Assembly: GCA_026391215.1 (NCBI GenBank)
Contig: JAPLDX010000122.1
Coordinates: 1-21,750, forward strand
From: Bacteroidia bacterium
GTDB taxonomy: Bacteria; Bacteroidota; Bacteroidia; Bacteroidales; VadinHA17
DNA: 21,750 nucleotides
Direction: 5' to 3'
Shown here: in pieces, positions 1-13,994 of the stretch
Position numbering within the stretch: the stretch's first letter is position 1
How the letters are laid out: each line of letters starts with the position of its first letter
Notes under the pieces: generated by a model
Database searches by the model: none
Told to the model about the DNA's origin: nothing
The model's input: the letters and a program-made list of their open reading frames with translations, nothing else
Translations under genes and position numbers: made by a program

Positions 1-27
1 TGTTATTATGGATATGGCAATTTCCAT
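1..27 (-). CDS. 5' end of the next gene of the hydrogenase operon (partial; MEIAISIIT...), probably another membrane subunit
   Basis: ATG at 27-25, 14 nt after the stop of the antiporter gene, with an A/T-rich leader. The hydrophobic start runs off the window edge. Confidence 0.45.
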
Positions 28-41
28 TTATATTAAGGTAT

Positions 42-1940
42 TTATATCATAATCAGCAACATAATAATCAATCCGGCACAGGCCCAGATAATATAGTCCG
101 GCAGTACACCTGAGTGAGCTTCACTGAACAGGTGACTCAGCCAGAGCACGAACTTCTTTGACAGGTCATAAATATCAAACCATTTCTCTTCAGCTTTCTT
201 ATAGATCCATGAAAAGAATTTGAATTCTACGATAGTCTTATAAAATTCAGGTGTAGCAAAACTTGCCTGATCCTGAATTGTTTCCCCTCCTATGAAGCTG
301 TCCTCTCTTCTGAATTTTTTAAGGTTTAAAGCAAGGTATAGGATTATTCCAAGAACTAATGAGATTAATACCAGCAACGAAACAACTGATGAATTCCAGA
401 ATCCTATAAATTGGAATTCACCTGTTACTGGCATGAACAGTTTTGGTACTATTACGTTTGTGGCAAATACACCAAAGCCTATACAGAACAAAGCCAGTAT
501 TACTAAAGGTAGCCACATAAGAAATGGCACCTCGCGCACATTCTCAAGAGATGGCCGGCGACGGCTGAGGAATATACCTCCGATGAGTTTAATAAAGCTT
601 GCAAGGGTAAGAGCTGATCCAAGAACAGCCAATCCAAGCCATATTACCCAGAGTTTATTTGCAATACCAGCTCCGGAACCGAAGTCAATTATTCCCTGGT
701 AGATCATCCATTTTGAAGCAAAACCATTAAGTGGCGGTACTCCTGAGATCGACATGGCAAAGATGAGAGCGGCAACAAATGTTATAGGCATCGCTTTTGA
801 AAGTCCTCCAAGCTCATCAATATTTTCTTCTCCGGTACGGTACTCGACGCAGCCCGCCGAAAGCAGAAGTCCACTTTTGTAGAGGGCCTGGTTGATCATA
901 TGGAAGAGACCGGCAGCAATCCCGATCATCGAACCAAGCCCGAAGCCAAGGATCATATAACCCACCTGTGAAACTGCATGAAATCCCAGAAGCCGCTTGT
1001 AATTATGCTGTACCAGGGCCATCATAACTGCAGTGATTATTGTGATCACTCCAATTGTGAGCAACAACAATCTCATCCAATCACCAAGTATGAAGATATC
1101 AGTGGTCATCCTTGCCAGGAAATATATTCCCAGCAGCTTATCCAGAGAAGCAGGAAGCAGTGCAGATGAAGAGGCGGGAGCATCTTTGGCATAATCCGGA
1201 ACCCATGAATGGAAAGGAAAGGCTCCTGCTTTTGCAAAGCTCCCGACCAGAAGTGCAAGGAAAGCTGTTATTGAAAGAATGTTGGTAGTTGGCAGATTGA
1301 TAGAGTCGATGCTTAATGATCCGGTCAGCCTCCAGAGTAAGCCGATTCCAAGTATCATTATTGAATCTGATGCCCCGATCAGAATGAGGGTTTTCTTTGC
1401 AGTTGCTGAGCTCTCCTCATCGCGTCCCGGGATGAGCTTATAAAGAGTGATCCCCAGGATACCCCAGAAGGTGAGGAACAACAGCAGGTTGTCAGATAAT
1501 ACTGCACCATAGGAGCAGCCAATAGTGATCAGGAACCATGTGTAGTAATGCTTTACCCGTCCGGTTTTGATATATACTAATGAATATAATAAAATCAAAA
1601 CAGCGAAAATGCTGATAAACAGTACTATCAGTTTGCTGAGATTATCAATTGTAAATGTAAAGTACCTGTCCAGTTCCTGAAATAAATTCGAACCAAAAAG
1701 CAGAATACATGATTTACCGATGATCCCGTCCAGTACGGCCATCTGAACGGACGAACTGAACAATGAAACAGTAAAATAGCCGGTAACAAGACTTATTATC
1801 ACCGCAAAGATGCCTTTTGCTGTTAAAAACCTGTCAGGAATAAGTAACAGGAGAAGCCCTGCCGCAATGGGTAACAATATAAGGAATTGCAGGTAGCTGC
1901 AAACAGATGGCTGTGATATTATGGAGATAAACTCATTCAT
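42..1940 (-). CDS. Ion-translocating antiporter-like membrane subunit (NuoL/MrpA-MrpD/HyfB family) of the group 4 hydrogenase
   Basis: 632 aa, many TM helices, family motifs KAGAFPFHSWVPD, KRLLGFHAVSQVGY, HMINQALYKSGL and GVPPLNGFASKW. ATGA overlap with the large-subunit gene. Confidence 0.92.
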   Translation of the reverse strand: MNEFISIISQPSVCSYLQFLILLPIAAGLLLLLIPDRFLTAKGIFAVIISLVTGYFTVSLFSSSVQMAVLDGIIGKSCILLFGSNLFQELDRYFTFTIDNLSKLIVLFISIFAVLILLYSLVYIKTGRVKHYYTWFLITIGCSYGAVLSDNLLLFLTFWGILGITLYKLIPGRDEESSATAKKTLILIGASDSIMILGIGLLWRLTGSLSIDSINLPTTNILSITAFLALLVGSFAKAGAFPFHSWVPDYAKDAPASSSALLPASLDKLLGIYFLARMTTDIFILGDWMRLLLLTIGVITIITAVMMALVQHNYKRLLGFHAVSQVGYMILGFGLGSMIGIAAGLFHMINQALYKSGLLLSAGCVEYRTGEENIDELGGLSKAMPITFVAALIFAMSISGVPPLNGFASKWMIYQGIIDFGSGAGIANKLWVIWLGLAVLGSALTLASFIKLIGGIFLSRRRPSLENVREVPFLMWLPLVILALFCIGFGVFATNVIVPKLFMPVTGEFQFIGFWNSSVVSLLVLISLVLGIILYLALNLKKFRREDSFIGGETIQDQASFATPEFYKTIVEFKFFSWIYKKAEEKWFDIYDLSKKFVLWLSHLFSEAHSGVLPDYIIWACAGLIIMLLIMI

Positions 1941-3142
1941 TTCAATTGGATAAGGTTTTTCTTCAGTTCAGAGGTTTTACCCGTTGATAAATCAATGAGA
2001 TCTTTTGCGTTCCAGATCTTCCTGCCTGATTTCTGATCATAAGCAACAGCAAGACGTTCAGTACAGCAATAACATGGATCAACAGCAGCCAGCGAAATTG
2101 TTGCATCTGCAATTGTCTGTCCGATACAAGATTTCTTGAATGTGGCAATGTTGACATAACTCGGTGCCCTGATCTTATGCCTTGCAGGCGAGTTGGAGCC
2201 ATCAGACACCACGTAATGAAATACTTCTCCCCTGGGAGCCTCAGCACGTCCGGCGCCGCTGCCCTCAGGTATCTCTTTAACGACTACATTTATATCACCT
2301 TCTTTTGTTTTTTCCAGGCCGCTGAGGCATTGTTCAATAATTGAGATTGATTCGTACATTTCCAGGAGCCTGACCTGCGCCTTGGCAAAGACGTCGCCTT
2401 CCTCTGCTGTGATCACTTTCCAGTTCACAAGCGGATAAGCGGCATAAGGATCATCCTTCCTGATGTCAATTGCTACTCCTGAAGCCCTTGCAGTCGGACC
2501 AACAGCAGCATAATCTATAACATCCTGCTTTGTAAGGATGCCCACACCTTTAGTCCTGGCATGAATGACAGGATCATCCATGACTGCGCCTGTTAACAGA
2601 TCAGTTTTTTTCTTAACATCAGCCAGTATCTTCCTGATTACAGGTATCTTATTATTCTCAATGTCCCGGCGAACTCCTCCAACCCTGAACATCGCGTAGC
2701 TATTCCTGTTGCCTGTGATCATTTCGAAAAGATCAAGAACTGGTTCCCTGTACTTCCATGCCCACATGAATACAGTGTTGTATCCCAGGAAATGACCGGC
2801 AAGACCGACCCACAGGAGGTGACTGTGAATACGTTCAAGTTCGCCAATGAATGATCTGATATATTTTGCCCTGTCAGTAATTTCAACTCCTGCAATCTCT
2901 TCTACTGCATTCGCGAAAGCAAAAGGATGAGATGTCGAGCATATGCCGCATATCCGTTCAACCAGAAAGAAAACCTGATCGTAAGTCTTTGATTCACTAA
3001 GCTTTTCAATACTCCTGTGATTATAACCTGTTTCCCACTTTATATCCTTTACGATCTCACCGTCGCAGAAAAGCTTAAATAGTTCGGGCTCCTCCTGCAG
3101 GGGATGATAGGGACCAATCGGTATGAGTGTTTTCTTGCCCAT
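1937..3142 (-). CDS. Group 4 [NiFe]-hydrogenase large (catalytic) subunit (HycE/MbhL/EchE family)
   Basis: 401 aa. NuoD-like N-terminus GPYHP...GYNHRSIEKL, L1 motif ERICGICSTSH, EAPRGE, L2 motif DPCYCCTER (all four Ni-Fe Cys present), followed by a 38-aa C-terminal extension. Confidence 0.95.
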   Translation of the reverse strand: MGKKTLIPIGPYHPLQEEPELFKLFCDGEIVKDIKWETGYNHRSIEKLSESKTYDQVFFLVERICGICSTSHPFAFANAVEEIAGVEITDRAKYIRSFIGELERIHSHLLWVGLAGHFLGYNTVFMWAWKYREPVLDLFEMITGNRNSYAMFRVGGVRRDIENNKIPVIRKILADVKKKTDLLTGAVMDDPVIHARTKGVGILTKQDVIDYAAVGPTARASGVAIDIRKDDPYAAYPLVNWKVITAEEGDVFAKAQVRLLEMYESISIIEQCLSGLEKTKEGDINVVVKEIPEGSGAGRAEAPRGEVFHYVVSDGSNSPARHKIRAPSYVNIATFKKSCIGQTIADATISLAAVDPCYCCTERLAVAYDQKSGRKIWNAKDLIDLSTGKTSELKKNLIQLK

Positions 3143-3156
3143 CTTCTTTCAGGTTC

Positions 3157-3594
3157 TTATTTAAACTCTTTCCTGTAAGGATAAACTCCTTCTGCCCAGT
3201 TGCCGTCAGATATCAGTTTCTCCTGGTTCGGGTGATTTAGAAAATTAATGCCGAATAACTCATGCATTTCCCTTTCAATCCAGTTGGATGCATTGAACAT
3301 ATTCGAAAGCGATTCAATCTCCGGATTTTCCTTATCGAGTATCACATGTATATTCAGAACCAGCCCGATTGCATCCAGACTGAAATGATAATGTATCTCA
3401 AATCCTTTTTTTGTATGCAGGGCTGAGGCAATGATGAATCTGAATCCGGCTGTTTTATATAAATACTCTGCAACTTTAAGAATAGCATCCGGATTTATCG
3501 TGATAATAGCGCGCTTCTCACTCTTTTTTTCGGTGCTGATAATATCAGAACCAAAGTTCTCTTTCAATTTCTCTATCGCCAGATCCGTATTCAT
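3157..3594 (-). CDS. NuoC-like subunit of the group 4 hydrogenase (MbhK/EchD family)
   Basis: 145 aa, NuoC signature ASNWIEREMHELFGINFLNHP. Lies between the small and large subunit genes. Confidence 0.88.
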   Translation of the reverse strand: MNTDLAIEKLKENFGSDIISTEKKSEKRAIITINPDAILKVAEYLYKTAGFRFIIASALHTKKGFEIHYHFSLDAIGLVLNIHVILDKENPEIESLSNMFNASNWIEREMHELFGINFLNHPNQEKLISDGNWAEGVYPYRKEFK

Positions 3595-3663
3595 TTAACT
3601 TTAAACTTTAAACATTAAACTTTAAACTCTTCTTCCTTGTGCCCTGCGCCTAGCGCCTAGTGC
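3595..3663. repeat. Two adjacent heptamer tandem arrays filling the intergenic gap
   Basis: TTTAAAC-type x4 at 3600-3627 (tttaaac, tttaaac, attaaac, tttaaac) and CTAGCGC-type x4 at 3636-3663 (cttgtgc, cctgcgc, ctagcgc, ctagtgc). Confidence 0.8.
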
Positions 3664-4077
3664 CTATTTTTTATTTACCAGTTTCACTATTCCTCCGATT
3701 ATTGCTTCAGGTTTTGGCGGACACCCGGGGATATATGCATCTACCGGGATTATCTTGTCCACGGGCCCGGCAAAGGTTATGCTGTCTGCAAATAATCCTC
3801 CTGTGCATCCGCAGGCGCCGATCGCAACAACCAGTATCGGCCTGGGAGCCTGGTTATAGATCTCCAGAAGCCGGTTCTTGTCCTTCATGTTAATGGATCC
3901 GTTAACCAGCAGTACATCTGCATGACGTATACTGCCGACCAGGAGAATACCGAACCGTTCAAGGTCATGCTTTGGTGTCAGACAGTCCAGTATCTCTATG
4001 TCACAGTTATTGCAGGATGCTCCGCCGAAGTGGAAAACCCAGAGAGACTTTTTGAAGCAAAAATTCTTAAAACCCAC
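3664..4077 (-). CDS. Group 4 [NiFe]-hydrogenase small subunit (NuoB/HycG/MbhJ/EchC family)
   Basis: 137 aa, GTG start. SCNNCDIE, RHADVLLVNG, GACGCTGG and YIPGCPPKPEAI motifs ligate one [4Fe-4S] cluster. Confidence 0.93.
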   Translation of the reverse strand: MGFKNFCFKKSLWVFHFGGASCNNCDIEILDCLTPKHDLERFGILLVGSIRHADVLLVNGSINMKDKNRLLEIYNQAPRPILVVAIGACGCTGGLFADSITFAGPVDKIIPVDAYIPGCPPKPEAIIGGIVKLVNKK

Positions 4078-4089
4078 AATTACAAATAT

Positions 4090-5022
4090 TTAGTAACCAA
4101 ATGCAATCAATACCAGAGCAAAAACTGCAAGCAGGTTCATCCAGATCACGAAGAAACTCATAGCCTGCTTGATCTTAATCCTGGGATTTGTGTTCCTTAT
4201 TAATGTAATAAGCAGAACAACCAGCAAAACTTTGAGCACTGCCCAAAGAATATTTATCCCATTCAGCCTGAAACCGTTCATTAATAAGGCAATCAGGAAA
4301 GCAGGGAGGATGAAGAGCATTATATATTTTGTAAGCTTGATAAGTCCGTATGCAGGCCCTGAATACTCAATAAAGATCCCTTCGGTTATTTCGGCCTCAG
4401 CTTCAGGCATATCGAATGGAACCATGGCCAGCTTTGCCTGGATACAGAATATCCCGACAATAAATAGCAGGACTCCCGAGATGCTTCCTATGAAAGGAGT
4501 GCCGGACTGCTGAGTTTGAATAATAGTGTATAGATCAAAATGCTGTCCGCATTTCATTATTATCCCTGCTATGACCAGGAGAAAAGTGAATTCATAACTG
4601 AGGATAAGCTTCATTTCTCTTGAACCTCCAACGGCAGCAAGCGGATTACCTGAAGCGAGAGCTCCCATTATATATGAAAAGGAAGGTATCGTAAGAAGGT
4701 AGAAGATTACCAGAAGATCGCCTTTAAAACCTGTTGTTATATTAAATAGTGGCAACAGAATAAATACTCCTGCCATTACTGCGCCAAACACTGCAAAAAC
4801 CGGAGCCATAAGGAACATCATCGGGGATCCCTGCTTTGGGAGGATTGTTTCCTTGACAAGCAGTAATTTAAAGAAATCATAGAAAGGCTGCAGGAGAGGA
4901 GGTCCCTTACGGAATTGCACCCTTGCAGAGATCTTCCTGTCGAACCATGACAGGAAAGCGCCTGTAACTGCAACGAAGAGCAGACCCGGGAAAACAAAGA
5001 AATAAAACAGATTGACTGCCAT
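4090..5022 (-). CDS. NuoH/HycD/MbhM-like membrane anchor subunit
   Basis: 310 aa, hydrophobic, motifs DRKISARVQFRKGPPLLQPFYDFFKLL and PFDMPEAEAEITEGIFIEYSG. Confidence 0.93.
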   Translation of the reverse strand: MAVNLFYFFVFPGLLFVAVTGAFLSWFDRKISARVQFRKGPPLLQPFYDFFKLLLVKETILPKQGSPMMFLMAPVFAVFGAVMAGVFILLPLFNITTGFKGDLLVIFYLLTIPSFSYIMGALASGNPLAAVGGSREMKLILSYEFTFLLVIAGIIMKCGQHFDLYTIIQTQQSGTPFIGSISGVLLFIVGIFCIQAKLAMVPFDMPEAEAEITEGIFIEYSGPAYGLIKLTKYIMLFILPAFLIALLMNGFRLNGINILWAVLKVLLVVLLITLIRNTNPRIKIKQAMSFFVIWMNLLAVFALVLIAFGY

Positions 5023-5023
5023 A

Positions 5024-5521
5024 TTACTTATTCTCAGTGATATACAAATATTCTTTCACAAGGACCTTATCATTCAGTCTGTAAATATTCTTTTCCGGCG
5101 ATTCATCCTCATCAGTAAGAGACACTGTTCCGGTGGGAGAGGCTTTAATGAATTTTTCCAGCTCCTTCTCGTCATTCAGATCATAAAAAAGATCTCTGTT
5201 CCTGTGATGAATGAAGAAATCGGTCATCATGGTACCGAAAGGGCAAATTGTTACACACGACTTGCAAGACACACAAAGATTGGTGTGGCGCATTATGATT
5301 CCATCTTTATCTTTTTCAAGGGCATCAGCGGGACAGACACCTATGCAGGGAGCATCTTCACATCTCCTGCAGGTAAACCTGAATGTCGCCAGCTCGCGAA
5401 TGGTTTTAAGCCCGTTTGAATTAAAAGATGTATAATATAATGCTTCGGGGAGCTCCTGTGATGAGTTTTCAACCATGGCAGCCCTCAGCTTTATCATATC
5501 TATCAGGATCTTTTTTGCCAT
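5024..5521 (-). CDS. HycB/DmsB/CooF-type Fe-S electron-transfer protein retaining two [4Fe-4S] motifs
   Basis: 165 aa with CRRCEDAPCIGVCP and CVSCKSCVTICP. The outer two cluster motifs of the family lack Cys. Confidence 0.82.
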   Translation of the reverse strand: MAKKILIDMIKLRAAMVENSSQELPEALYYTSFNSNGLKTIRELATFRFTCRRCEDAPCIGVCPADALEKDKDGIIMRHTNLCVSCKSCVTICPFGTMMTDFFIHHRNRDLFYDLNDEKELEKFIKASPTGTVSLTDEDESPEKNIYRLNDKVLVKEYLYITENK

Positions 5522-5522
5522 A

Positions 5523-6347
5523 TCAGTCCCAGATATTTGGTTGATCCTTTATTTCATCATAAGTGAATACAGGTCCATCCTTGCAGACGAAGTATTTTCC
5601 CATCATGCAGTGTCCGCACTTTCCCAATCCGCATGACATATTTTTCTCCATCGAAAGATAAACATCATGTTCAGGATAGCCCATTTCAAGAAGCTTCCTT
5701 GTTCCGAATTTCATCATAATTGGAGGTCCGCAAACAACTGCAATTGAATTCTTTATATCAACCTTCACATCATCCAGGAGGATAGTGACCACTCCGACCC
5801 TTTCATTCCAGTTGCCTGAAGCTTTATCGACACTTCTCAGCACTTCAAATTTTGGAGTCTTTCTTAACACTGAAATATAAGGTTTGTAAATGCAATCTTC
5901 AGGTGTTTTTGAACCATAGCAGAGTGTTACTTTTCTTAATTTATCAGAAACAGCTATAAGGTTGTAGAGAAGCGATCTGATCGGTGCAAATCCACAGCCT
6001 CCGCCAAGTATAAGCACCTCTTTATCATAGAATTTCTCAACGGGATAGCCTCGTCCGTAGGGACCTCTTATTCCCATATAAGCTCCCGGCTTGAGATTAT
6101 GCATATACTCGGTCATATACCCGGTTTTCATAACGGTGACCTCGAGCTTATCTGTTACCTGCGGTGAGGAAGAAGGAGTAAAGGGCGCTTCTCCGATACC
6201 ATCAACGGATAATTCAATAAACTGACCGGTTCTGAATGCAAACTCTTCTTCAGGAACGAGGACAAATGTTTTTATGAGGGGTGATTCTTCAATCACGTCT
6301 GTCAGCTTTGCCCTCAGAGGCTTATATATATTTTTGTCATTCCTCAT
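5523..6347 (-). CDS. FAD/NAD(P)-binding [2Fe-2S] oxidoreductase (AsrB / sulfhydrogenase gamma / FlxA / PyrK family)
   Basis: 274 aa, motifs GQFIEL...GEAPFTPSS, IRGPYGRGYP, GGGCGFAPIRS, VCGPPIMM and C-terminal MSCGLGKCGHC...VCKDGPVF. Confidence 0.92.
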   Translation of the reverse strand: MRNDKNIYKPLRAKLTDVIEESPLIKTFVLVPEEEFAFRTGQFIELSVDGIGEAPFTPSSSPQVTDKLEVTVMKTGYMTEYMHNLKPGAYMGIRGPYGRGYPVEKFYDKEVLILGGGCGFAPIRSLLYNLIAVSDKLRKVTLCYGSKTPEDCIYKPYISVLRKTPKFEVLRSVDKASGNWNERVGVVTILLDDVKVDIKNSIAVVCGPPIMMKFGTRKLLEMGYPEHDVYLSMEKNMSCGLGKCGHCMMGKYFVCKDGPVFTYDEIKDQPNIWD

Positions 6348-6355
6348 ATTCTCTG

Positions 6356-7363
6356 TTAAGCGAGTTCCCTGAAAAGTTCATTTTTATTTATCTTGCCTAT
6401 ACAGGCTTCAATGCATCTTCCGCAACCTGTACATGCAACAGAATTGAATTTCTCCGGTTTCCAGACATATTTACACATATACCTGTTCCTGAAGCGGTTA
6501 TGAAGCCTGAACAGGGCGTCTTCTCCGCCTGCAACCCTCTCAAATCCTGGATACTGGCAGGCATCCAGCTGTTTTACCTTTTCAAATCCGGGTTTATCTA
6601 TGAGCAAAAAGCAGGTGCATGTAGGGCATATTGTTGCACACGCTCCGCATGAAACACAATGAGAAGAATATTTTTCCCAGGTTTCCTTTTTTGCTTCAGC
6701 AACGATTTTGCCTGTAGCTTTATAATCCGGCAATCCTTTGTTCGCTTCAGTGAGAAGGGATTCCGTTTCTTTCTGCTTCTTTTCTATATCCGATAAAGTA
6801 TTTTTGTCATCAAATGATATTGCTTCAGGGATTGTTTTAAGGAAATTCTCCCCTTTAACTGAAATTACCCTGAATATTATCAATCCGTTCAGACTGATTA
6901 CAGCAAGATCAGCTTTACCTGCCGAATATGGCTTTATGCCATATGAGAGGCAATGACAATGTTCCTGGGTGCCAAAACAATCGGCCGAAATCAGCAGAGT
7001 ATCTTCGCGGCGCTTTCTGTAGAAGGGATCATTGAAATCTTTATCAAGGTAGATTTCGTCCAGCAGCGATAATCCTTCAATATCGCAATTTGGAGCTCCG
7101 ATAATAATCCATGATTTCCCGGTCCTTCTGTCCGATGTGACATTTTCCTTTACGGGAAGGAAGAAGCTCTTAAGAGAAGTAACCGGCTTGGGCTTATTGT
7201 AAACGATCTGTGAAATGTTGGTCGGATGGACCATTTCATAGTCCTGTCCGAATTCATTGCAGATACTTGCATAAACTGCATGGGATGATATCAGATTTTC
7301 CAATACCTTATCCCACTCTTCCTTTTTGATGCTTTTATACTGCATTAATGTGAGAAGATTCAC
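6356..7363 (-). CDS. AsrA / sulfhydrogenase beta / FlxB-D family Fe-S protein (ATG at 7345 is an equally likely start)
   Basis: GAPNCDIEGL...LD...DPFY..RRE, C-x5-CHC, CVSCGACATICPTCTC and CTGCGRCIEAC. Directly upstream of the AsrB-like gene. Confidence 0.9.
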   Translation of the reverse strand: MNLLTLMQYKSIKKEEWDKVLENLISSHAVYASICNEFGQDYEMVHPTNISQIVYNKPKPVTSLKSFFLPVKENVTSDRRTGKSWIIIGAPNCDIEGLSLLDEIYLDKDFNDPFYRKRREDTLLISADCFGTQEHCHCLSYGIKPYSAGKADLAVISLNGLIIFRVISVKGENFLKTIPEAISFDDKNTLSDIEKKQKETESLLTEANKGLPDYKATGKIVAEAKKETWEKYSSHCVSCGACATICPTCTCFLLIDKPGFEKVKQLDACQYPGFERVAGGEDALFRLHNRFRNRYMCKYVWKPEKFNSVACTGCGRCIEACIGKINKNELFRELA

Positions 7364-7610
7364 ATATAAAATTAAAATCTACAGTTATAAATCTATAAAA
7401 ATCTATCTGATTTTATTATGATAAAAATCAACATATTTTTAAATATCAATGGATCAGCTAATTAAAAGTATATTTAATTTAAAAATGGAATATATATAAT
7501 GCAAAATCAAAAAAATAATATGATTTTATATGAAAGAAATCACAATATATAATACAAAAATCAGCTATGTTCACATGCTGTTTATGATTGACGGACTTTA
7601 AAAACCTCGA
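7364..7610. promoter_or_regulatory. Divergent AT-rich promoter region with two Crp/Fnr-like TGA-N6-TCA boxes
   Basis: atgataaaaatcaa (7418-7431) and atgaaagaaatcac (7530-7543), each preceded by tgatttta. Lies between the hydrogenase operon and the hyp operon. Confidence 0.5.
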
Positions 7611-7613: not shown

Positions 7614-9869
7614 ATTATACAAGGATATGAAATACTGATCAAAGGGCTGGTCCAGGGTGTCGGATTTCGCCCTTTTATTTGCAGAATGGCCTCAAAACAC
7701 GGACTCCAGGGATATGTCGAAAATAGAACCGATGGCGTCTCAGTGATTGTGCAGGGCGATCTTAAAACTATCGACAGTTTCAGCAATGATATCCTTCGGC
7801 TTGCCCCTCCGGCATCACAGATAAAATCTATAGAAATCAACGAAGTAAAGATACCAGGCTTTGACAGCTTTAAAATTACAGGGAGTAAAACATATGATAA
7901 TCAGATTACTGAAGTAAGCCCTGATATTGCGGTCTGTCCTGAATGCCTGGCTGATATTGAAAAGGATCCGGGGAGAATAGATTATCCGTTTGTTAACTGC
8001 ACAAACTGCGGTCCGAGGTTTACGATAATTGAAGGGCTTCCCTATGACCGTCCGAAGACAACAATGAAAAGCTTCAGGATGTGCGCAAAATGTAAATCAG
8101 AGTACAATGATATTCTTGACCGCCGTTTTCATGCTCAACCCATAGCATGTAATTCATGCGGACCGGCTTATAGCTATAAGGACCGCACCAAAAGCCTTGG
8201 CAGGATAAATGAAATATTGCAGGAGGTGTCCGCACAGATAGCCTCAGGCAGAACAGTAGCTGTCAAAGGGATGGGAGGTTATCACCTTATGTGTGACGCA
8301 TTGAATAACAATGCAGTAAGCGAACTGAGAAATAAGAAACAGCGTGATGCAAAGCCTTTTGCCGTAATGTTCATGGATCTTCACACAGTTAAAAACTACT
8401 GCTTCCTTGATGACGCGGAGGAAAAGGAGCTTACCTCATGGCGAAGGCCTATCCTGATCCTGAAACAGAAGAAACAGCTGTCAGCAGCAGTAAGTGACGG
8501 ACTGAATACAATAGGAGCCATGCTGCCTTATATGCCCCTTCATTATATGCTGTTCAGGGTGCTGAAAACACCTGCTGTTGTTCTTACCAGCGGCAATTTG
8601 TCCGATGAACCAGTAATCATCAACGACCTTATCGCTGAAAAAAAGCTGATGCCGGTTGCTGACTCCATACTAAGCTTTAACAGGCAGATCCTTAACAGAA
8701 CTGATGATTCAGTAGTACGGTTTATTGACCGTAAAATAACCATAATACGAAGATCCAGAGGATTTGTCCCTCGTCCGGTAGATCTTAAATTCAACGTTGA
8801 AGGGATACTGGCACTGGGCGCTGAACAGAAAAACAGCTTCTCTCTTGGCAGGGGAAATCAGGCAGTTATGAGCCAGTATATCGGAGATCTTAAAAATCAT
8901 GCGACATATGATTTTTTTATTGAGTCAATTGACAGATTTTCAAAGCTTTTCAGATTTAAGCCACGCTGCATCGCATGTGATCTTCATCCGGATTATCTTT
9001 CAACACGGCTTGCCGAAGAACTTGAGAAGGAATTAAAAATTCCTCTTATCAGAATACAGCATCACCATGCTCATATTGCTTCATGCATGGCTGAAAACGG
9101 GATTGACGATGAAGTTATCGGGGTCAGCCTTGACGGAACAGGCTTCGGCACAGACGGTAAAATATGGGGAGGCGAGTTTATGATAGCCGACCTTAAGAAT
9201 TTCAAAAGGTTCTCCGGTTTCGATTATATACCTCTGCCCGGAGGTGAAAAGGCAATTGAGGAACCATGGAGAATGGCATTTTCATATATTCATAAATATT
9301 TCGGTGACAGCTTTGATTTTAACTCCATGCCCCTGTTCGGGATTATTGAAAAGAAAAAGCTGTCACTTATCAGGGAGGCGCTCGATAAGAAAATAAATTC
9401 ACCGGAATCTTCAGGAGCAGGCAGGCTGTTTGATGCCGTCTCCGCGATCCTCGGACTTTGTATTACAGCAAGATTTGATTCAGAAGCTCCAATGAGGCTT
9501 GAATCTGCAATAAATGATGAAACAAATGACTTCTATCCTTTCAGAGCAGAAAAGACCATTCTGTTTTCCGATACCCTGAAAGCCGTTATTGAAGATATGA
9601 AACATAAGTCAGCTTCAGTTATCTCCGCTAAATTTCATAACACTGTTGCGCAGGTTATCCTTGAAGTATCAAAGCAGATCAGGAAGGAAACATCCATTAA
9701 CAAAGTGCTTCTTTCAGGCGGTGTTTTCCAGAATAAATATCTTCTGGAGAAATCTTTGTATCTTTTGAACCGCAACAGGTTTAAAGTATTTACAAACCAC
9801 ATTGTTCCGGCCAATGACGGAGGTATATCACTTGGTCAGTTAGTAATTGCTTCTAAAACAAGAAGATAA
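7614..9869 (+). CDS. hypF: Carbamoyltransferase HypF (first ATG at 7686; homology extends upstream to ~7614)
   Basis: Acylphosphatase motif KGLVQGVGFRPF in frame at 7641-7676, zinc fingers CPEC...CTNCGPRF and CAKC...CNSCGP, VKGMGGYHL, QHHHAH, DGTGFG, SGGVFQN and NDGGISLGQ. Confidence 0.96.
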   Translation: MIQGYEILIKGLVQGVGFRPFICRMASKHGLQGYVENRTDGVSVIVQGDLKTIDSFSNDILRLAPPASQIKSIEINEVKIPGFDSFKITGSKTYDNQITEVSPDIAVCPECLADIEKDPGRIDYPFVNCTNCGPRFTIIEGLPYDRPKTTMKSFRMCAKCKSEYNDILDRRFHAQPIACNSCGPAYSYKDRTKSLGRINEILQEVSAQIASGRTVAVKGMGGYHLMCDALNNNAVSELRNKKQRDAKPFAVMFMDLHTVKNYCFLDDAEEKELTSWRRPILILKQKKQLSAAVSDGLNTIGAMLPYMPLHYMLFRVLKTPAVVLTSGNLSDEPVIINDLIAEKKLMPVADSILSFNRQILNRTDDSVVRFIDRKITIIRRSRGFVPRPVDLKFNVEGILALGAEQKNSFSLGRGNQAVMSQYIGDLKNHATYDFFIESIDRFSKLFRFKPRCIACDLHPDYLSTRLAEELEKELKIPLIRIQHHHAHIASCMAENGIDDEVIGVSLDGTGFGTDGKIWGGEFMIADLKNFKRFSGFDYIPLPGGEKAIEEPWRMAFSYIHKYFGDSFDFNSMPLFGIIEKKKLSLIREALDKKINSPESSGAGRLFDAVSAILGLCITARFDSEAPMRLESAINDETNDFYPFRAEKTILFSDTLKAVIEDMKHKSASVISAKFHNTVAQVILEVSKQIRKETSINKVLLSGGVFQNKYLLEKSLYLLNRNRFKVFTNHIVPANDGGISLGQLVIASKTRR

Positions 9870-10087
9870 TGTGCCTTAGTATTCCTGTGAAAATTGTGTC
9901 AATTGATGGCGACATTGCAGAAGTATCTGCAGGAGGAACTCTTTTTAAAGCCGGAATGCAGATGATTGATAATGCAAATGTCGGTGATTATGTCCTTCTT
10001 CATGCAGGTTTCGCGATTCAGAAGATAAGTGAAGAAGACGCTGCAGAGACTTATAAAATTCTCCGTGAAATGAATGATATCGGATGA
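9869..10087 (+). CDS. hypC: Hydrogenase maturation chaperone HypC
   Basis: MCLSIP N-terminus and VGDYVLLHAGFAI. TAATG overlap with hypF. Confidence 0.96.
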   Translation: MCLSIPVKIVSIDGDIAEVSAGGTLFKAGMQMIDNANVGDYVLLHAGFAIQKISEEDAAETYKILREMNDIG

Positions 10088-11172
10088 AGTATATTGATGA
10101 ATACAGGGATAAGGAATTGATAATGAAGCTGGCGGACCGGATAGCCAGTGCTGTGAAGCGGGATTATACTTTTATGGAGGTTTGCGGAGGCCATACGGCA
10201 GCAATACACAGGTTCGGAATTCCGTCACTGCTCCCGGAAAATATCAGGTTGATCTCAGGACCCGGTTGTCCTGTATGCGTTACAGATACCGGTTTTATTG
10301 ATAAGGCAATCGCATATTCGCAAAAAGAGGATGTTATAATCACTACTTTCGGAGACCTGATAAGGGTCCCCGGCTCAGCATCATCACTTGAAAAACAGAA
10401 AGCAGCCGGTGCAGATGTACGGATTATTTTTTCAGGTCTTGAAGCTCTTGAAATTGCAAAAACAAATCCCAGAAAAAAGATCATTTTCCTCGGAATTGGT
10501 TTTGAGACAACCGCTCCGGGAACTGCAGTTACAATAAAACAGGCTGAAAAAGAGAATATTAACAATTTCTTCGTTTTAAGCGCTCATAAGATAATGCCTC
10601 CTGCAATGGAAGAAATTGTAAAAGGAGGAACGAATCTCGATGGTTTTATCTGCCCTGGTCATGTAGCTGCAATAACAGGTTCATCAATTTTTAATTTTCT
10701 TCCTGAAAAATACAACCTTGGTTGTGTGGTTACCGGTTTTGAACCGACCGACCTGTTACAATCGGTACTGCTCCTGACAGAACAGGCGAACAGAAATGAA
10801 CCAAAAGTGGAAATACAGTATAACAGGGTAGTCACTGTGAATGGTAATATTAAGGCTCAAAGGCATTTAAATGATGTATTTGAGACTTGTGATGCATACT
10901 GGAGAGGTTTTGGGATAATTCAGTCCAGCGGGCTCACTCCCGGAAAAAACTTTGAAAGATTCAATGCGGAGATAAATATGCCTGTAGAGGCCGGCAAACA
11001 TGATGAAAATGAAATGTGCATCTGCGGTGAAATTCTAAGGGGATTGAAGGAACCGGGTGAATGTCCTCTTTTTGCAGATATCTGCACGCCTGAAAATCCG
11101 GTGGGAGCCTGCATGGTATCCGGTGAAGGATCATGTAATACGTGGTATAAATACAGACGTCAGGATGAATGA
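10084..11172 (+). CDS. hypD: Hydrogenase maturation protein HypD
   Basis: MEVCGGHT, GPGCPVC, GFETTAP, PGHV and GACMVSGEGSC motifs. Confidence 0.97.
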   Translation: MKYIDEYRDKELIMKLADRIASAVKRDYTFMEVCGGHTAAIHRFGIPSLLPENIRLISGPGCPVCVTDTGFIDKAIAYSQKEDVIITTFGDLIRVPGSASSLEKQKAAGADVRIIFSGLEALEIAKTNPRKKIIFLGIGFETTAPGTAVTIKQAEKENINNFFVLSAHKIMPPAMEEIVKGGTNLDGFICPGHVAAITGSSIFNFLPEKYNLGCVVTGFEPTDLLQSVLLLTEQANRNEPKVEIQYNRVVTVNGNIKAQRHLNDVFETCDAYWRGFGIIQSSGLTPGKNFERFNAEINMPVEAGKHDENEMCICGEILRGLKEPGECPLFADICTPENPVGACMVSGEGSCNTWYKYRRQDE

Positions 11173-12172
11173 TCATATCTCTCTGAATCACGGAAATGGT
11201 GGCAGGCAGACACATGAGCTGATAAAGAAGGTGTTTGTGAAGAGCTTCGGTATGACTGAGCCGCTGACTGACTCGGCCATACTTGAGGAACCTGGAAAGA
11301 CTTTTGTGTTTACAACTGACTCTTATGTTGTTGACCCGATATTTTTCCCTGGAGGGAACATCGGCAAGCTCGCTGTCTGCGGTACGGTTAATGACCTGGC
11401 AGTATCAGGCGCACTGCCAAAATACCTTGCCTGTTCTTTTATAATTGAAGAAGGTTTCCCGATGGATGATCTTATATCTGTCACAAAAGCGATGGCCGAA
11501 GAAGCTTTAAAAGCAGGGGTGAAGATCGTTACAGGTGATACAAAAGTGGTAGGGAAGGGTAAATGCGACAGGCTGTTCATAACTACTTCAGGTACCGGTA
11601 TCATTAATAAGGAGAAGGAACATATAAGTACAGGCAGGCAGGTAACTTCTGGAGACAAACTGATCATCAACGGCTCTCTCGGCAATCATGCCATAGCAGT
11701 CCTTGGTGCCCGTAACAATCTGAGTTTCAGTACACCTGTTATTTCAGACTGCGCATCGCTGAACCACCTGATTGCCGGAGTGCTTGAGAAATGCGGTGAA
11801 GTGCATTTCATGCGTGATCTTACCAGGGGAGGCCTGGCAGGGGTATTGAATGAGCTTGCTGAAATGACTGGAACCGGCATCTCAGTTAATGAACGTTCCG
11901 TTCCAATTGATGAACCTGTCAGGGGAGTATGTGAAATGCTGGGATTTGATCCGTTATACCTGGCAAATGAAGGTAAGGTGCTGATTGTGGCAGGAAAAGG
12001 ATCAGAGGAAGAAATACTTGATATTATAAGGCGTGATCCTCTTGGAGTAGATTCCGCGATTATCGGGGAGATCACGGCTGAAAACAGGGGAATGGTTATC
12101 TTGAATACAACTGCCGGAGGGAAGAGGATAATTGACATGCCTTCGGGTGTTCAGCTTCCAAGGATTTGTTAA
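11165..12172 (+). CDS. hypE: Carbamoyl dehydratase HypE (start at ATG 11165, not 11057)
   Basis: MNDHISLNHGNGG, TTDSYVVDPIFFPGGNIGKLAVCGTVNDL, RDLTRGG, ANEG and terminal LPRIC. Confidence 0.97.
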   Translation: MNDHISLNHGNGGRQTHELIKKVFVKSFGMTEPLTDSAILEEPGKTFVFTTDSYVVDPIFFPGGNIGKLAVCGTVNDLAVSGALPKYLACSFIIEEGFPMDDLISVTKAMAEEALKAGVKIVTGDTKVVGKGKCDRLFITTSGTGIINKEKEHISTGRQVTSGDKLIINGSLGNHAIAVLGARNNLSFSTPVISDCASLNHLIAGVLEKCGEVHFMRDLTRGGLAGVLNELAEMTGTGISVNERSVPIDEPVRGVCEMLGFDPLYLANEGKVLIVAGKGSEEEILDIIRRDPLGVDSAIIGEITAENRGMVILNTTAGGKRIIDMPSGVQLPRIC

Positions 12173-12182
12173 AAGAGTTTTT

Positions 12183-12524
12183 ATGCATGAGATTAAAATA
12201 GCGGAGGATCTTTCGGTAATTGTGCTGGAAACGGCAAAGAAGGAAAACCTTTCAAAGATCACCAAGGTGAATATAACCTTCGGCCAGCTTATCCAGATTG
12301 TCCCCGATATCTTCAGGTTTGCCTTTGATGAAGCTGTAAAGAATTCAGTAGCCCAGGAGGCTGAGTTGACAATTGAAGTAATACCGGTGATGATGAAATG
12401 TATAAATTGCGGAAACGATTTCCAGGTTGTTGAGAATCGCTTTTCATGTAATGTGTGTAATTCAACCGATCTGGAAATTATTCATGGTAAGGAATTGTTT
12501 ATAAAAAGTATAGAAGGAGAATAG
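12183..12524 (+). CDS. hypA: Nickel metallochaperone HypA (start at ATG 12183)
   Basis: MHE N-terminus, CINC...CNVC zinc site and GKELFIKSIE. Confidence 0.95.
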   Translation: MHEIKIAEDLSVIVLETAKKENLSKITKVNITFGQLIQIVPDIFRFAFDEAVKNSVAQEAELTIEVIPVMMKCINCGNDFQVVENRFSCNVCNSTDLEIIHGKELFIKSIEGE

Positions 12525-12527
12525 CTC

Positions 12528-13202
12528 ATGGAAATCAAAATAATGAAAAACATCCTTGACAGGAACCAGAACAAAGCCAATGAGGTGAGAAATCTGCTGG
12601 CATCAAGAAAAGTACTGATGGTGAATATAATAAGTTCACCGGGAGCAGGCAAGACTACACTGCTGGAACGTACCTGCGAAGCTCTTGCCTCAAAATTCAG
12701 GATAGGAGTAATTGAAGGGGATGTAACTACCGACAGGGATGCACAGCGTCTTAAAAAGTACAATATTCCGATTGTTGTTATAAATACTGAAGGAGGATGT
12801 CATCTTGATTCCCACAGCATCTCAAAAGTCCTCGATTCATTTGATCTTGATAATCTTGACGTTCTATTCGTTGAGAATGTAGGTAACCTTATCTGTCCGT
12901 CACAGTTTGATCTGGGTGAAACCTTTAAACTTGCGGTAGTAAGTACTGCTGAAGGAGATGATAAACCTGATAAATATCCAATGCTTTTCAGGGAGGCAAA
13001 AGCAGTCCTTCTCAATAAAATTGACCTGATCCAGTATACTAATTTTAATCATGAAAACTTCACCAGGGATCTTAAAAAGATCAATGGTAAAATACTTCAG
13101 TTCGATGTGTCATGTACCAGGGGTGATGGACTGGAGGAATGGTTTAAATGGATAACGGATCAGATAAGTCATTTAACTTCAGAACCTGAAGCCTATTTTT
13201 AA
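12528..13202 (+). CDS. hypB: Nickel-insertion GTPase HypB
   Basis: SSPGAGKTT P-loop, IEGD, GGCHLD, ENVGNLICP, EGDDKP and NKID. Confidence 0.96.
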   Translation: MEIKIMKNILDRNQNKANEVRNLLASRKVLMVNIISSPGAGKTTLLERTCEALASKFRIGVIEGDVTTDRDAQRLKKYNIPIVVINTEGGCHLDSHSISKVLDSFDLDNLDVLFVENVGNLICPSQFDLGETFKLAVVSTAEGDDKPDKYPMLFREAKAVLLNKIDLIQYTNFNHENFTRDLKKINGKILQFDVSCTRGDGLEEWFKWITDQISHLTSEPEAYF

Positions 13203-13922: not shown

Positions 13923-13994
13923 AGAGAAAGGTTTTAAGTTAATAAGGTTTAGCATGATTTTTGATTTGATTATCTTGACTAAACCTGATTTCTT

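What the first reader, a model, noticed from the sequence alone, without database searches (positions are those of the whole stretch)
42..7363. Hybrid operon: group 4 ion-translocating [NiFe]-hydrogenase headed by an AsrA/AsrB (group 3b-type) NAD(P)H module
Seen: AsrA-like, AsrB-like, ferredoxin and NuoH-like genes are separated by only 8, 1 and 1 nt, followed by small, NuoC-like, large and antiporter subunits. Known: characterised group 4 enzymes take electrons from ferredoxin (Ech, Mbh, Eha/Ehb), formate dehydrogenase (Hyc/Hyf) or CODH (Coo). The beta/gamma pair normally serves soluble group 3b sulfhydrogenases, AsrABC or Flx-Hdr. No group 3b catalytic subunits, AsrC or Hdr genes appear in this window. 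Inference: a membrane-bound NAD(P)H:H+ oxidoreductase. It could use the ion gradient to drive uphill H2 evolution from NAD(P)H (reverse electron transport), or pump ions during H2-dependent NAD(P)+ reduction. I do not know of a biochemically characterised example.
Basis: partly seen in the sequence, partly recalled or inferred. Interest (0 to 1): 0.9.

Follow-up and report, generated by a model that had tools for sequence, protein, structure and literature searches.

The report
NAD(P)H module on membrane-bound hydrogenase
An uncultured Bacteroidales bacterium carries a conserved operon that puts an NAD(P)H-oxidising flavoprotein pair in front of an ion-pumping, Mrp-linked nickel-iron hydrogenase, which suggests an untested way to turn NAD(P)H into hydrogen gas using the membrane ion gradient.

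Summary
On the minus strand (7363->42) lie SHI-beta/AsrA-like, SHI-gamma/AsrB-like, a HycB/CooF-type 2x[4Fe-4S] protein, NuoH-like, small, NuoC-like, large ([NiFe] Cys ligands intact) and NuoL-like genes. The contig ends 41 nt after the last gene. Relatives, and contig C5 of the same bin, continue with MbhD/E, MnhB, MrpC-G, a HycF/NuoI-type subunit and a HycI protease.

So this is an Mrp-linked, FHL-like group 4 hydrogenase in which the beta/gamma flavoprotein sits where formate dehydrogenase or CODH normally sits. The gene order is kept in every related locus that the contigs allow me to judge: 12/12, 57/57 and 23/23 consistent. These include another Bacteroidota class and a clade with a Spirochaetota-labelled member.

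A divergent rex gene and two Rex-type boxes precede most copies. No 3b hydrogenase exists in the genome, and a paralogous beta/gamma pair belongs to a Flx-Hdr cluster.

The function (NAD(P)H:H+ oxidoreduction coupled to ions) is inferred, not shown. Similar asrAB-cooF-Mrp-group 4 clusters were noted in silico in 2019 and 2026, always with an Fdh-like subunit, which is absent here. I call it a new variant of a known kind.

The parts
6356..7363 (-). SHI-beta / AsrA-like iron-sulfur subunit (Fer4_22). The likely true start is the ATG at 7345 (329 aa).
   Evidence: The only PDB relative is P. furiosus sulfhydrogenase 1 beta, 9nez_B, 1.4e-27. Sixteen Cys are invariant in 81 orthologues. Most listed homologues are 328-336 aa.
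5523..6347 (-). SHI-gamma / AsrB-like flavoprotein: FAD domain, NAD(P)-binding domain and a C-terminal [2Fe-2S].
   Evidence: The best PDB hit is SHI gamma, 9nez_C, 1.4e-46. G116 G117 G119 A121 P122 and C239/C244/C247/C255 are invariant in 104 distinct orthologues.
5024..5521 (-).
   Evidence: Fer4_11, with HydN/DsrO/ArrB-type NCBIfam hits. PDB hits are ArrB, HDCR HycB3/4 and FHL HycB; MbhN scores only 1.3e-5. Eight Cys are invariant.
4090..5022 (-). NuoH / MbhM / HycD-like membrane subunit.
   Evidence: PF00146, 1.7e-64.
3664..4077 (-). Hydrogenase small subunit (NuoB-like, proximal cluster only).
   Evidence: PF01058, 7.7e-30. C22, C25, C89 and C119 are invariant.
3157..3594 (-). NuoC / MbhK-like subunit.
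   Evidence: PF00329, 1.4e-23.
1937..3142 (-). [NiFe] large subunit, group 4, with a C-terminal extension of about 40 aa.
   Evidence: One search shows the motifs RICGICS and DPCYCC. C65/C68/C357/C360 are invariant. The best PDB hits are MbhL 6cfw_L (9.5e-85) and HycE 7z0s_E (2.9e-77).
42..1940 (-). NuoL / MbhH-like antiporter-type subunit. It is the last gene before the contig end, and the operon continues beyond the window.
   Evidence: PF00361. Continuation on contig C5 and in relatives.
7348..7365 (.). Rex-type operator, exact core TGTGA-N6-TCACA, ending 4 nt before the ATG at 7345.
   Evidence: A proximal exact core is present in 74 of 88 related loci, against 0 of 1760 shuffles with any exact core.
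7528..7545 (.). Second Rex-type box, one core mismatch, about 199 nt upstream of the operon start.
   Evidence: A distal exact core is present in 80 of 88 related loci.
7686..13202 (+). Divergent hypF-hypC-hypD-hypE-hypA-hypB maturation genes for the [NiFe] site.
   Evidence: Pfam HypF domains, HupF_HypC, HypD, AIRS/AIRS_C, HypA and cobW/HypB.

Best explanation
The operon encodes an Mrp-linked, formate-hydrogenlyase-like group 4 [NiFe]-hydrogenase whose substrate module is an NAD(P)H-oxidising flavoprotein pair.

Proposed electron path (inferred from family knowledge): NAD(P)H -> FAD and [2Fe-2S] of the gamma/AsrB-like subunit -> Fe-S clusters of the beta/AsrA-like subunit -> the two clusters of the HycB/CooF-like connector -> the HycF/NuoI-like subunit (encoded at the operon's end) -> the proximal cluster of the small subunit -> the [NiFe] site, where H+ is reduced to H2.

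NADH -> H2 is uphill above roughly 60-70 Pa H2 (E0' -320 versus -414 mV). The NuoH/NuoL/Mrp membrane arm would therefore let H+ or Na+ flow inward to drive H2 evolution. It would run near equilibrium at very low H2, and in reverse it could pump ions during H2-dependent NAD(P)+ reduction. The rex gene and Rex boxes in most relatives suggest that the operon is switched on when NADH/NAD+ is high, which fits NADH disposal.

Shown: the gene content, intact cofactor ligands, and strict conservation of the linkage. Inferred: that beta/gamma dock on the complex, the identity of the nucleotide, the direction, and the ion coupling.
For: 1. All parts are present with intact ligands.
2. The gaps asrB-fdx and fdx-nuoH are 1 nt each.
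3. Gene order is conserved:
   - 12 of 12 orthologous loci from same-genus and same-order genomes.
   - 57 of 57 genome-contig loci with at least 7.3 kb downstream; the other 23 of 80 are cut by contig ends and are consistent as far as they go.
   - One genome of another Bacteroidota class at 49% AsrA identity.
   - 23 of 23 metagenome loci found with a Spirochaetota-labelled homologue: 12 reach the large subunit, and AsrA is 40-64% identical to the window's.
4. Co-occurrence: 13 relatives hold a large-subunit orthologue. Twelve have AsrA-like adjacent, and the 13th (G005, 79% complete) is cut by a contig end 465 nt upstream of the large-subunit gene.
5. The layout is FHL-like. An extra HycB-type protein stands at the head. 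A separate HycF-type protein (7z0s_F, 6.7e-21) and HycI stand at the tail. There are seven Mrp-type genes.
6. This is the only [NiFe] large subunit in the assembly, with hyp genes adjacent.
7. rex lies about 187 nt upstream in 82 of 90 loci. Exact Rex-type cores occur in 82 of 88 loci and at both conserved positions in 73, against 0 of 1760 shuffles. The Rex consensus is quoted in PMC6391272 and PMC5317091 (passages read).
Against: - There is no evidence of physical attachment of beta/gamma to the hydrogenase.
- There are no expression data.
- Rex also controls ferredoxin-dependent membrane [NiFe] hydrogenases (PMC6391272, passage read), so Rex linkage does not prove NADH is the substrate. The window itself lacks the adjacent rex gene.
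- The HycB-like protein could be a docking site for soluble ferredoxin, so ferredoxin may still be a donor, or the main one.
- AsrA-like is broken into pieces in 2 of 12 relatives (G009, G022) while most hydrogenase genes there read through. These genomes are 87% and 86% complete, and one carries N, so assembly error is possible.
- NCBIfam scores are far below every equivalog cut-off (144 versus 690 for ShyB; 121.8 versus 323 for AsrA; 201.5 versus 288.6 for AsrB). Cofactor specificity therefore cannot be transferred.
- No ion-driven NAD(P)H-dependent hydrogenase has been measured.
Confidence: 0.5

Rival explanations
1. Ferredoxin remains the main donor, as in Mbh. The beta/gamma module is a side branch, so the complex either mixes electrons from ferredoxin and NAD(P)H into H2, or acts as an ion-coupled ferredoxin:NAD(P)+ oxidoreductase with H2 as an overflow.
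For: The large subunit is closest to ferredoxin-dependent MbhL among solved structures. A HycB-type protein and a HycF-type protein could both accept ferredoxin. The genome makes reduced ferredoxin through PFOR. The 2026 paper proposes a branched, bifurcating network for related 4b clusters (PMC13582414, section 16).
Against: The beta/gamma family is not known to carry a bifurcating flavin (family knowledge, recalled). The third branch proposed in print, the Fdh-like protein, is absent here. The genome already has Rnf and a HydABC-type [FeFe] hydrogenase in the same window for those two jobs.
Confidence: 0.2
2. The enzyme works mainly as an uptake hydrogenase: H2 + NAD(P)+ -> NAD(P)H, exporting H+ or Na+ and feeding NADH to Nuo and anaerobic respiration.
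For: The reaction is downhill at high H2 (established potentials). SHI-type beta/gamma modules are reversible (title of the reference cited in PMC13582414). The genome has a Nuo-type complex on contigs C19 and C31.
Against: A Rex-repressed operon is derepressed when NADH is already high, which fits NADH consumption better than NADH production (Rex function as described in PMC5317091). The neighbouring genes are H2-evolving fermentation equipment.
Confidence: 0.12
3. The beta/gamma pair, with or without the connector, is a separate soluble oxidoreductase that is only co-transcribed with the hydrogenase. It might reduce a diffusible carrier.
For: Nothing shows docking. The same genome uses a paralogous beta/gamma pair in a different complex, Flx-Hdr.
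Against: Order and tight spacing are kept down to 40-50% AsrA identity, with no case of the large-subunit orthologue without the pair where contigs allow a judgement. The position copies that of FdhH or CooS modules, which do dock (family knowledge).
Confidence: 0.1
4. The beta/gamma module reduces sulfur or polysulfide, in the manner of a sulfhydrogenase or Mbs, rather than exchanging electrons with NAD(P).
For: Sources annotate the homologues as 'sulfhydrogenase subunit beta (sulfur reductase)'.
Against: The NAD(P)-binding loop and the FAD domain are invariant. The [NiFe] ligands and the hyp genes are intact, unlike Mbs-type complexes.
Confidence: 0.03

Closest known systems
Pyrococcus furiosus membrane-bound hydrogenase Mbh (Mrp-linked, ferredoxin-coupled; PDB 6CFW)
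   Same: The large subunit's best solved relative is MbhL (9.5e-85). NuoH-, NuoL-, NuoC-like, MbhD/E, MnhB and MrpC-G-type subunits are present.
   Different: Mbh takes electrons directly from ferredoxin. It has no beta/gamma flavoprotein and no HycB-type connector. Gene order also differs.
Formate hydrogenlyase (E. coli FHL-1, PDB 7Z0S) and Mrp-linked formate/CO-dependent group 4b enzymes
   Same: Modular wiring: substrate module -> HycB/CooF-type -> HycF-type -> small -> large. A C-terminal extension plus HycI protease. An Mrp module as described for 4b (10.64898/2026.02.25.708027, passage read).
   Different: No formate dehydrogenase or CODH is present. An FAD/NAD(P) flavoprotein pair occupies that place. 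The connector has 2 clusters, whereas HycB has 4 (the latter recalled).
Pyrococcus furiosus soluble hydrogenase I (group 3b) beta and gamma subunits (PDB 9NEZ)
   Same: These are the only (beta) and the best (gamma) solved homologues, with the same domains and Cys patterns.
   Different: No 3b alpha/delta subunits exist in the genome. Scores are far below the ShyB/ShyC/HydB/HydG equivalog cut-offs. The partner here is a membrane complex.
Genome-predicted asrA-asrB-cooF-Mrp-group 4 clusters (Saganbacteria RX5A, PMC6349859; group 4b clusters with Cys-less Fdh plus SHI-beta/gamma, PMC13582414)
   Same: The same combination: a beta/gamma pair, a CooF-type protein, Mrp-type subunits and a group 4 hydrogenase. 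All are untested biochemically.
   Different: Those clusters include a molybdopterin (Fdh-like) protein, and the 2026 paper proposes three-way bifurcation. No such ORF is in the Bacteroidales or metagenome loci. I could not compare sequences, and the supplements that draw those clusters are closed.
Respiratory complex I (NADH:quinone oxidoreductase)
   Same: An NADH-type flavoprotein input, NuoB/C/D/H/I homologues and antiporter-like subunits in one assembly.
   Different: The input module is not NuoEFG. The acceptor is H+ at a [NiFe] site rather than quinone. The thermodynamic driving force is opposite.
Electron-confurcating HydABC [FeFe]-hydrogenase and Flx-Hdr
   Same: HydABC is the established route from NADH to H2 and is encoded 8 kb away in the same window. 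Flx-Hdr uses a paralogous beta/gamma pair in the same genome.
   Different: HydABC needs ferredoxin as co-donor and is soluble. Flx-Hdr has no hydrogenase.

Membership tests
Group 4 (energy-converting) [NiFe]-hydrogenase | Large subunit of the NuoD type with both CxxC Ni-binding motifs | tested here: met
   RICGICS and DPCYCC. C65, C68, C357 and C360 are invariant in 73 distinct orthologues. Pfam Complex1_49kDa + NiFeSe_Hases.
Group 4 (energy-converting) [NiFe]-hydrogenase | NuoB-like small subunit with only the proximal [4Fe-4S] | tested here: met
   137 aa, PF01058. Four Cys are invariant.
Group 4 (energy-converting) [NiFe]-hydrogenase | NuoH-like and NuoL-like membrane subunits in the operon | tested here: met
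   PF00146 and PF00361.
Group 4 (energy-converting) [NiFe]-hydrogenase | NuoI/HycF/MbhN-type 2x[4Fe-4S] subunit | tested here: met
   A 206-aa protein follows MrpG in G004, G005 and G352, with best PDB hit HycF at 6.7e-21. In the window's own bin only its first 40 aa are assembled, at the end of contig C5.
Group 4 (energy-converting) [NiFe]-hydrogenase | H2 evolution or uptake coupled to ion translocation | not testable with these tools
   Needs biochemistry.
Mrp-linked subgroups (HydDB 4b / 4d) | Mrp antiporter-type subunits (MrpB-G homologues) encoded with the hydrogenase | tested here: met
   MbhD/E, MnhB, Oxidored_q2, Proton_antipo_M, MNHE, MrpF and PhaG_MnhG, found on contig C5 of the same bin and in relatives.
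Mrp-linked subgroups (HydDB 4b / 4d) | Placement of the large subunit in a named HydDB subgroup | not tested
   No HydDB classifier or reference set was available. I know only that MbhL is the nearest solved relative.
Formate- or CO-dependent hydrogenase complexes (4a/4b/4c) | Formate dehydrogenase or CODH catalytic subunit in the cluster | tested here: not met
   There is no such domain in the window. No unassigned ORF of 250 aa or more lies on the operon strand in the 23 metagenome loci. ORF lists of 8 genome-contig loci show only Mrp-type genes downstream.
Group 3b sulfhydrogenase beta/gamma (ShyBC/HydBG) | Beta with Fer4_22 and gamma with FAD/NAD/[2Fe-2S] domains | tested here: met
Group 3b sulfhydrogenase beta/gamma (ShyBC/HydBG) | Encoded with 3b alpha and delta subunits, and scoring above the equivalog cut-offs | tested here: not met
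   The assembly has only one [NiFe] large subunit, the group 4 one. Scores are 144 versus 690 and 182.6 versus 600.
Anaerobic sulfite reductase AsrABC | AsrC siroheme subunit adjacent, and scores above the TIGR02910/02911 cut-offs | tested here: not met
   No AsrC-like gene is in the window. Scores are 121.8 versus 323.15 and 201.5 versus 288.6.
Published asrAB-linked group 4 clusters (PMC6349859, PMC13582414) | Molybdopterin / Fdh-like subunit alongside asrA, asrB, cooF and Mrp | tested here: not met
   asrA, asrB, a cooF-type gene and Mrp genes are present, but no MopB-size ORF is in the operon.
Rex regulon | Palindromic TTGTGAA-N4-TTCACAA-type operator upstream, and a rex gene | tested here: inconclusive
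   Core boxes are conserved and rex is adjacent in 82 of 90 relatives. The window lacks the adjacent rex; the bin has only a 35%-identical Rex on C65. Binding is untested, and the core is shared with CRP/FNR-type sites (recalled).

The most novel reading that the evidence does not exclude
A natural 'complex I with protons as the acceptor'. This would be an Mrp-linked NADH:H+ oxidoreductase that spends sodium- or proton-motive force to vent NADH directly as H2 without ferredoxin. It would be a second solution, beside flavin-based electron confurcation, to the problem of making H2 from NADH. It would be common in uncultured Bacteroidales of peat, sediment and digesters, and would have been built independently of NuoEFG by recruiting a sulfhydrogenase-type flavoprotein module.
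Probability: 0.35. Interest if true: 0.85.

Novelty: new variant of a known kind. Interest (0 to 1): 0.66.

Why it matters
Fermenters and syntrophs must reoxidise NADH, and H2 formation from NADH is uphill except at very low H2. The accepted routes are electron confurcation with ferredoxin (HydABC) and detours through Rnf. A membrane hydrogenase wired directly to an NAD(P)H dehydrogenase module would add a chemiosmotic route, by reverse electron transport, and would change energy budgets drawn for abundant uncultured Bacteroidales in methanogenic habitats.

It would also be a living analogue of the step by which a hydrogenase plus an antiporter gained an NADH-oxidising module on the way to complex I. 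The operon is compact, conserved and Rex-flanked, so the question can be tested by expression, membrane assays and cryo-EM.

Tried and rejected
- Complex prediction of AsrA-like (alignment A1, 81 rows) with the HycB-like connector (A2, 81 rows): no verdict, score 0.00 against a mark of 0.32, controls not run. It counts neither for nor against binding.
- AlphaFold2 model of the connector: mean pLDDT 65.4, with the cluster-binding stretches below 50. Foldseek against PDB gave no match at E <= 0.001. Nothing was learned from this.
- RNA evidence: no RNA holder was listed for window:42-7700.
- ESM Atlas for the AsrA-like protein returned only generic Fer4_22 clusters from several phyla. These are leads only.
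- The search for homologous proteins with the AsrA-like protein listed 120 close homologues (68-87% identity), with Bacteroidota/Bacteroidia/Bacteroidales labels wherever a taxon label was given. It gave no breadth.
- A 400-genome sample of the phylum found one further orthologue.
- HydDB subgroup: not determined, because no classifier or reference sequences were available.
- I first read the 165-aa ferredoxin as the NuoI/EchF equivalent of a six-subunit Ech. I rejected this after finding a separate HycF-type gene and the Mrp genes downstream in relatives.
- I considered that the beta/gamma pair might be a stray part of a 3b hydrogenase or of AsrABC. I rejected this.
- Literature: no paper was found with phrases for an NADH- or NADPH-dependent membrane-bound or energy-converting hydrogenase. 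Searches gave only the two in-silico notes cited.
- Supplements are closed. Supplementary Fig. 3e and Note 5 of PMC6349859 and Supplementary Fig. 1B of PMC13582414 may draw clusters closer to this one than the main texts say.

Full report
**What is in the window.** Eight ORFs run head to tail on the minus strand from 7363 to 42. The gaps between them are 8, 1, 1, 12, 69 and 14 nt, then a 4-nt overlap. Pfam and NCBIfam identify them as follows.

| Coordinates | Identity | Main evidence |
|---|---|---|
| 6356-7363 | Fer4_22 protein | Best hits sulfhydrogenase ShyB and AsrA |
| 5523-6347 | FAD_binding_6 / NAD_binding_1 / DHODB_Fe-S_bind protein | Best hits hydrogenase gamma and AsrB |
| 5024-5521 | 165-aa two-cluster protein of the HydN/HycB/DmsB kind | Fer4_11 |
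| 4090-5022 | NuoH-like | PF00146 |
| 3664-4077 | NuoB-like small subunit | PF01058 |
| 3157-3594 | NuoC-like | PF00329 |
| 1937-3142 | NuoD-like large subunit | Complex1_49kDa + NiFeSe_Hases |
| 42-1940 | NuoL-like | PF00361 |

The large subunit keeps RICGICS and DPCYCC, followed by an extension of about 40 residues. Divergently, hypFCDEAB fill 7686-13202, and a HydABC-type [FeFe] hydrogenase lies at 15558-18999.

**Three corrections.**
- The AsrA-like gene probably starts at the ATG at 7345. Most of the 120 database homologues listed are 328-336 aa, and a conserved palindrome covers 7348-7365.
- The window begins at base 1 of its contig, so the operon is cut 41 nt after the NuoL-like stop.
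- The 'ferredoxin' is not the NuoI/EchF equivalent.

In eight genome contigs relatives examined, the NuoL-like gene is followed by ORFs of about 175, 145, 112, 512, 161 and 88 aa. In one of them, Pfam identifies these as MbhD/E, MnhB, NuoK/MrpC, MrpD, MrpE and MrpF. In G004, G005 and G352 there follow MrpG, a 206-aa 2x[4Fe-4S] protein whose best solved relative is HycF of formate hydrogenlyase (6.7e-21; MbhN 8e-12), and a HycI protease; G004 and G005 also have a conserved 137-aa protein after it, whereas the G352 locus ends within HycI.

In the window's own bin, the 4.5-kb contig C5 overlaps window 143-713 at 96% nucleotide identity. It then carries MbhD/E through MrpG and the first 40 codons of the HycF-like gene before it ends. 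The 96% figure suggests a co-binned strain variant rather than the literal continuation. The rest of HycF and HycI was not found in the assembly.

**What kind of enzyme.** Among solved structures, the large subunit is nearest to P. furiosus MbhL (9.5e-85), then to E. coli HycE (2.9e-77). The AsrA-like protein has a single solved relative, SHI beta (9nez_B, 1.4e-27). The AsrB-like protein's best solved relative is SHI gamma (9nez_C, 1.4e-46). The head connector matches ArrB, HDCR HycB3/4 and FHL HycB.

The layout is therefore that of formate hydrogenlyase or a CO-dependent hydrogenase: substrate module -> HycB/CooF-type -> HycF-type -> small -> large, with an Mrp membrane arm. An FAD/NAD(P) flavoprotein pair stands where FdhH or CooS would be. 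No formate dehydrogenase, CODH or molybdopterin-size ORF is in the operon in any locus I inspected.

Cofactor ligands are under constraint:
- The GGxGxAP nucleotide loop and the four [2Fe-2S] Cys of gamma are invariant in 104 distinct sequences.
- The eight Cys of the connector are invariant in 98.
- Sixteen Cys of beta are invariant in 81.
- The proximal-cluster Cys and the Ni ligands are invariant in 84 and 73 respectively.

**Is the linkage more than chance?** In 40 relatives, 12 hold a close AsrA-like orthologue. All 12 loci keep the eight-gene order. In two of them (G009, G022; 87% and 86% complete) the AsrA-like gene is in pieces.

A scan of one genome per species gave 198 related stretches. 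Of the best 80 loci, all 57 with at least 7.3 kb downstream show the full order, and the 23 that are cut are consistent as far as they go. The record titles of these 80 name uncultured Bacteroidales, Bacteroidia, Bacteroidota or Rikenellaceae MAGs and the like.

The large-subunit orthologue occurs in 13 of the 40 relatives. Twelve are the AsrA carriers. The 13th (G005, 79% complete) has its contig end 465 nt upstream of the large-subunit gene.

In an even sample of 400 genomes of the phylum, only one other genome has an orthologue (49% identity, labelled 'same phylum', so another class), and it keeps the whole order through HycI.

Outside the phylum, a search of 1.84 billion cluster representatives showed a steep fall from the protein's own clusters to a 45%-identical protein labelled Spirochaetota, and to 38-40% proteins labelled Omnitrophota, Patescibacteria group and Planctomycetota. 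A metagenome scan with the Spirochaetota-labelled protein returned 23 loci whose AsrA is 40-64% identical to the window's. All 23 are consistent with the same order, 12 reach the large subunit, and eight extend as far as MrpE, seven of them into MrpF.

The trait is patchy: about half of the sampled species of the genus carry it, and it is rare elsewhere in the phylum. Wherever it occurs, the beta/gamma pair and the hydrogenase travel together.

**Context in the genome.** This is the only [NiFe] large subunit above the Pfam cut-off in the assembly; the second hit is NuoD. So the adjacent hyp genes serve it, and there is no 3b enzyme to which the beta/gamma pair could belong.

A paralogous pair (28% and 35% identity) starts contig C77. 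In G004, a pair found with the same query at a similar 31% identity ends an HdrCBA-MvhD-Fe-S cluster, which is a Flx-Hdr arrangement. So the genome has both the usual use of this module and the hydrogenase-linked one. The bin also has Rnf, PFOR and five [FeFe]-hydrogenase-like genes.

**Regulation.** In 82 of 90 related loci, a gene with CoA_binding and Put_DNA-bind_N domains (Rex type) is transcribed divergently, starting about 187 nt upstream of the AsrA-like gene. Of the 8 loci without it, 2 are cut by contig ends.

Two TGTGA-N6-TCACA cores sit at about -19 and -202. Of 88 loci with at least 300 nt upstream, 82 have an exact core and 73 have both at these positions. In 1760 shuffles, none had an exact core. 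The loci are kin, so these counts are not independent.

The window has the proximal core exact (7348-7365) and the distal one with one mismatch (7528-7545). It lacks the adjacent rex; the bin's only Rex homologue is 35% identical, on C65.

The Rex consensus TTGTGAANNNNTTCACAA, and Rex's role as a repressor released at high NADH/NAD+, are as quoted in PMC6391272 and PMC5317091 (passages read). The same passages show that Rex also represses a ferredoxin-dependent membrane [NiFe] hydrogenase. This supports a role in NADH-driven redox balancing but does not prove NADH is the substrate.

**Mechanism proposed.** NAD(P)H reduces FAD in gamma. Electrons then pass through [2Fe-2S], the beta clusters, the connector, HycF-like and the small subunit to [NiFe].

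By the standard potentials (-320 and -414 mV), NADH -> H2 costs about 18 kJ/mol at 1 bar H2 and turns favourable only below roughly 60-70 Pa. One inward ion through the NuoH/NuoL/Mrp arm would pay for it. In reverse, the enzyme could export an ion. Rex control favours the H2-evolving direction.

These steps are inferred. I put 0.5 on the full statement and about 0.7 on the narrower claim that beta/gamma are the input module of this complex. The rivals are a ferredoxin-main or branched enzyme, an uptake enzyme, an unattached flavoprotein, and a sulfur reductase; they are listed with their tests.

**What is known already.** HydDB defines Mrp-linked 4b (formate/CO) and 4d (ferredoxin) and a loose 4g of unknown function (PMC5037454, passages).

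Matheus Carnevali et al. 2019 described an 'enigmatic' Saganbacteria group 4 locus with Mrp-like subunits, an unclassifiable molybdopterin oxidoreductase, cooF, asrA and asrB, which 'might compose an oxidoreductase module' (PMC6349859, passages).

A 2026 paper reports group 4b clusters in which a Cys-less Fdh co-occurs with SHI-gamma and SHI-beta homologues, and it proposes a three-way bifurcating network (PMC13582414, section 16).

Neither paper was biochemical, and both include the Fdh-like protein that is absent here. I found nothing on the Bacteroidales form. Papers on uncultured Bacteroidales (PMC7661554, PMC11225162, passages) do not mention it, and phrase searches for NADH- or NADPH-dependent membrane hydrogenases found no paper. 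Supplements were closed and may hold closer drawings.

**Verdict.** The feature is real and strongly conserved. It is a new variant (Fdh-less, NAD(P)H-only input) of a modular family that is already known, and the beta/gamma-linked relatives of that family have been noticed in genomes. Interest 0.66.

Noticed in passing
L023:3953-4423 and the same position in 46 of 80 genome-contig loci and 8 of 12 genome-search loci; absent from the window: A 151-156-aa stand-alone cyclic-nucleotide-binding-domain protein (PF00027, 1e-10) with no DNA-binding domain is inserted between the AsrB-like gene and the connector gene. It may be a regulatory or ligand-sensing subunit.
   Followed up: partly
window 1-713 versus G000 contig C5:3978-4548: C5 overlaps window 143-713 at 96% nucleotide identity but diverges from window 1-142. 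In C5 the NuoL-like C-terminal part and the MbhD/E-like protein read in one frame (a 346-aa ORF). This could be a strain variant, a fusion or an assembly fault.
   Followed up: partly
window 15558-18999 (+): NuoE-like, NuoF-like (386 aa) and a 593-aa HydA form a HydABC-type, presumably electron-confurcating, [FeFe] hydrogenase beside the hyp genes. The bin has five Fe_hyd_lg_C matches in all (C98, C117 and three on C65 near a Rex homologue).
   Followed up: partly
window 13179-13955 (-) and 13995-15290 (+): Two ORFs of 258 and 431 aa lie between hypB and the [FeFe] hydrogenase genes and have no Pfam match at E <= 0.01.
   Followed up: no
G000:C77:1-1658 (L033) and G004:C1:484000-496000 (L140): A paralogous AsrA/AsrB-like pair (28-35% identity) is present. 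In G004 it ends an HdrC-HdrB-HdrA-MvhD-Fe-S cluster of the Flx-Hdr type, preceded by a DHO_dh-like gene. In G000 the contig start cuts the cluster.
   Followed up: partly
L031 (G009:C80) and L032 (G022:C39): The AsrA-like gene is split by stops or frameshifts in two relatives while most downstream genes read through. This could be pseudogenisation or poor assembly (the genomes are 87% and 86% complete).
   Followed up: no
L115:5527-5940 and L141:2523-2930: A conserved 137-aa protein with paired CxxC motifs follows HycI at the operon's end (71% identical between G004 and G005). Its only Pfam hit is a weak Zn-ribbon match.
   Followed up: no
L120 and L121 (metagenome loci): A gap of about 465 nt separates the AsrA-like and AsrB-like genes. 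This is room for a small inserted gene that I did not examine.
   Followed up: no
window 19095-19694 (-) and 19841-20908 (+): An NADPH-dependent FMN reductase-family gene and a DinB/ImpB-type translesion polymerase gene lie at the far end of the window. They are unrelated to the finding.
   Followed up: no
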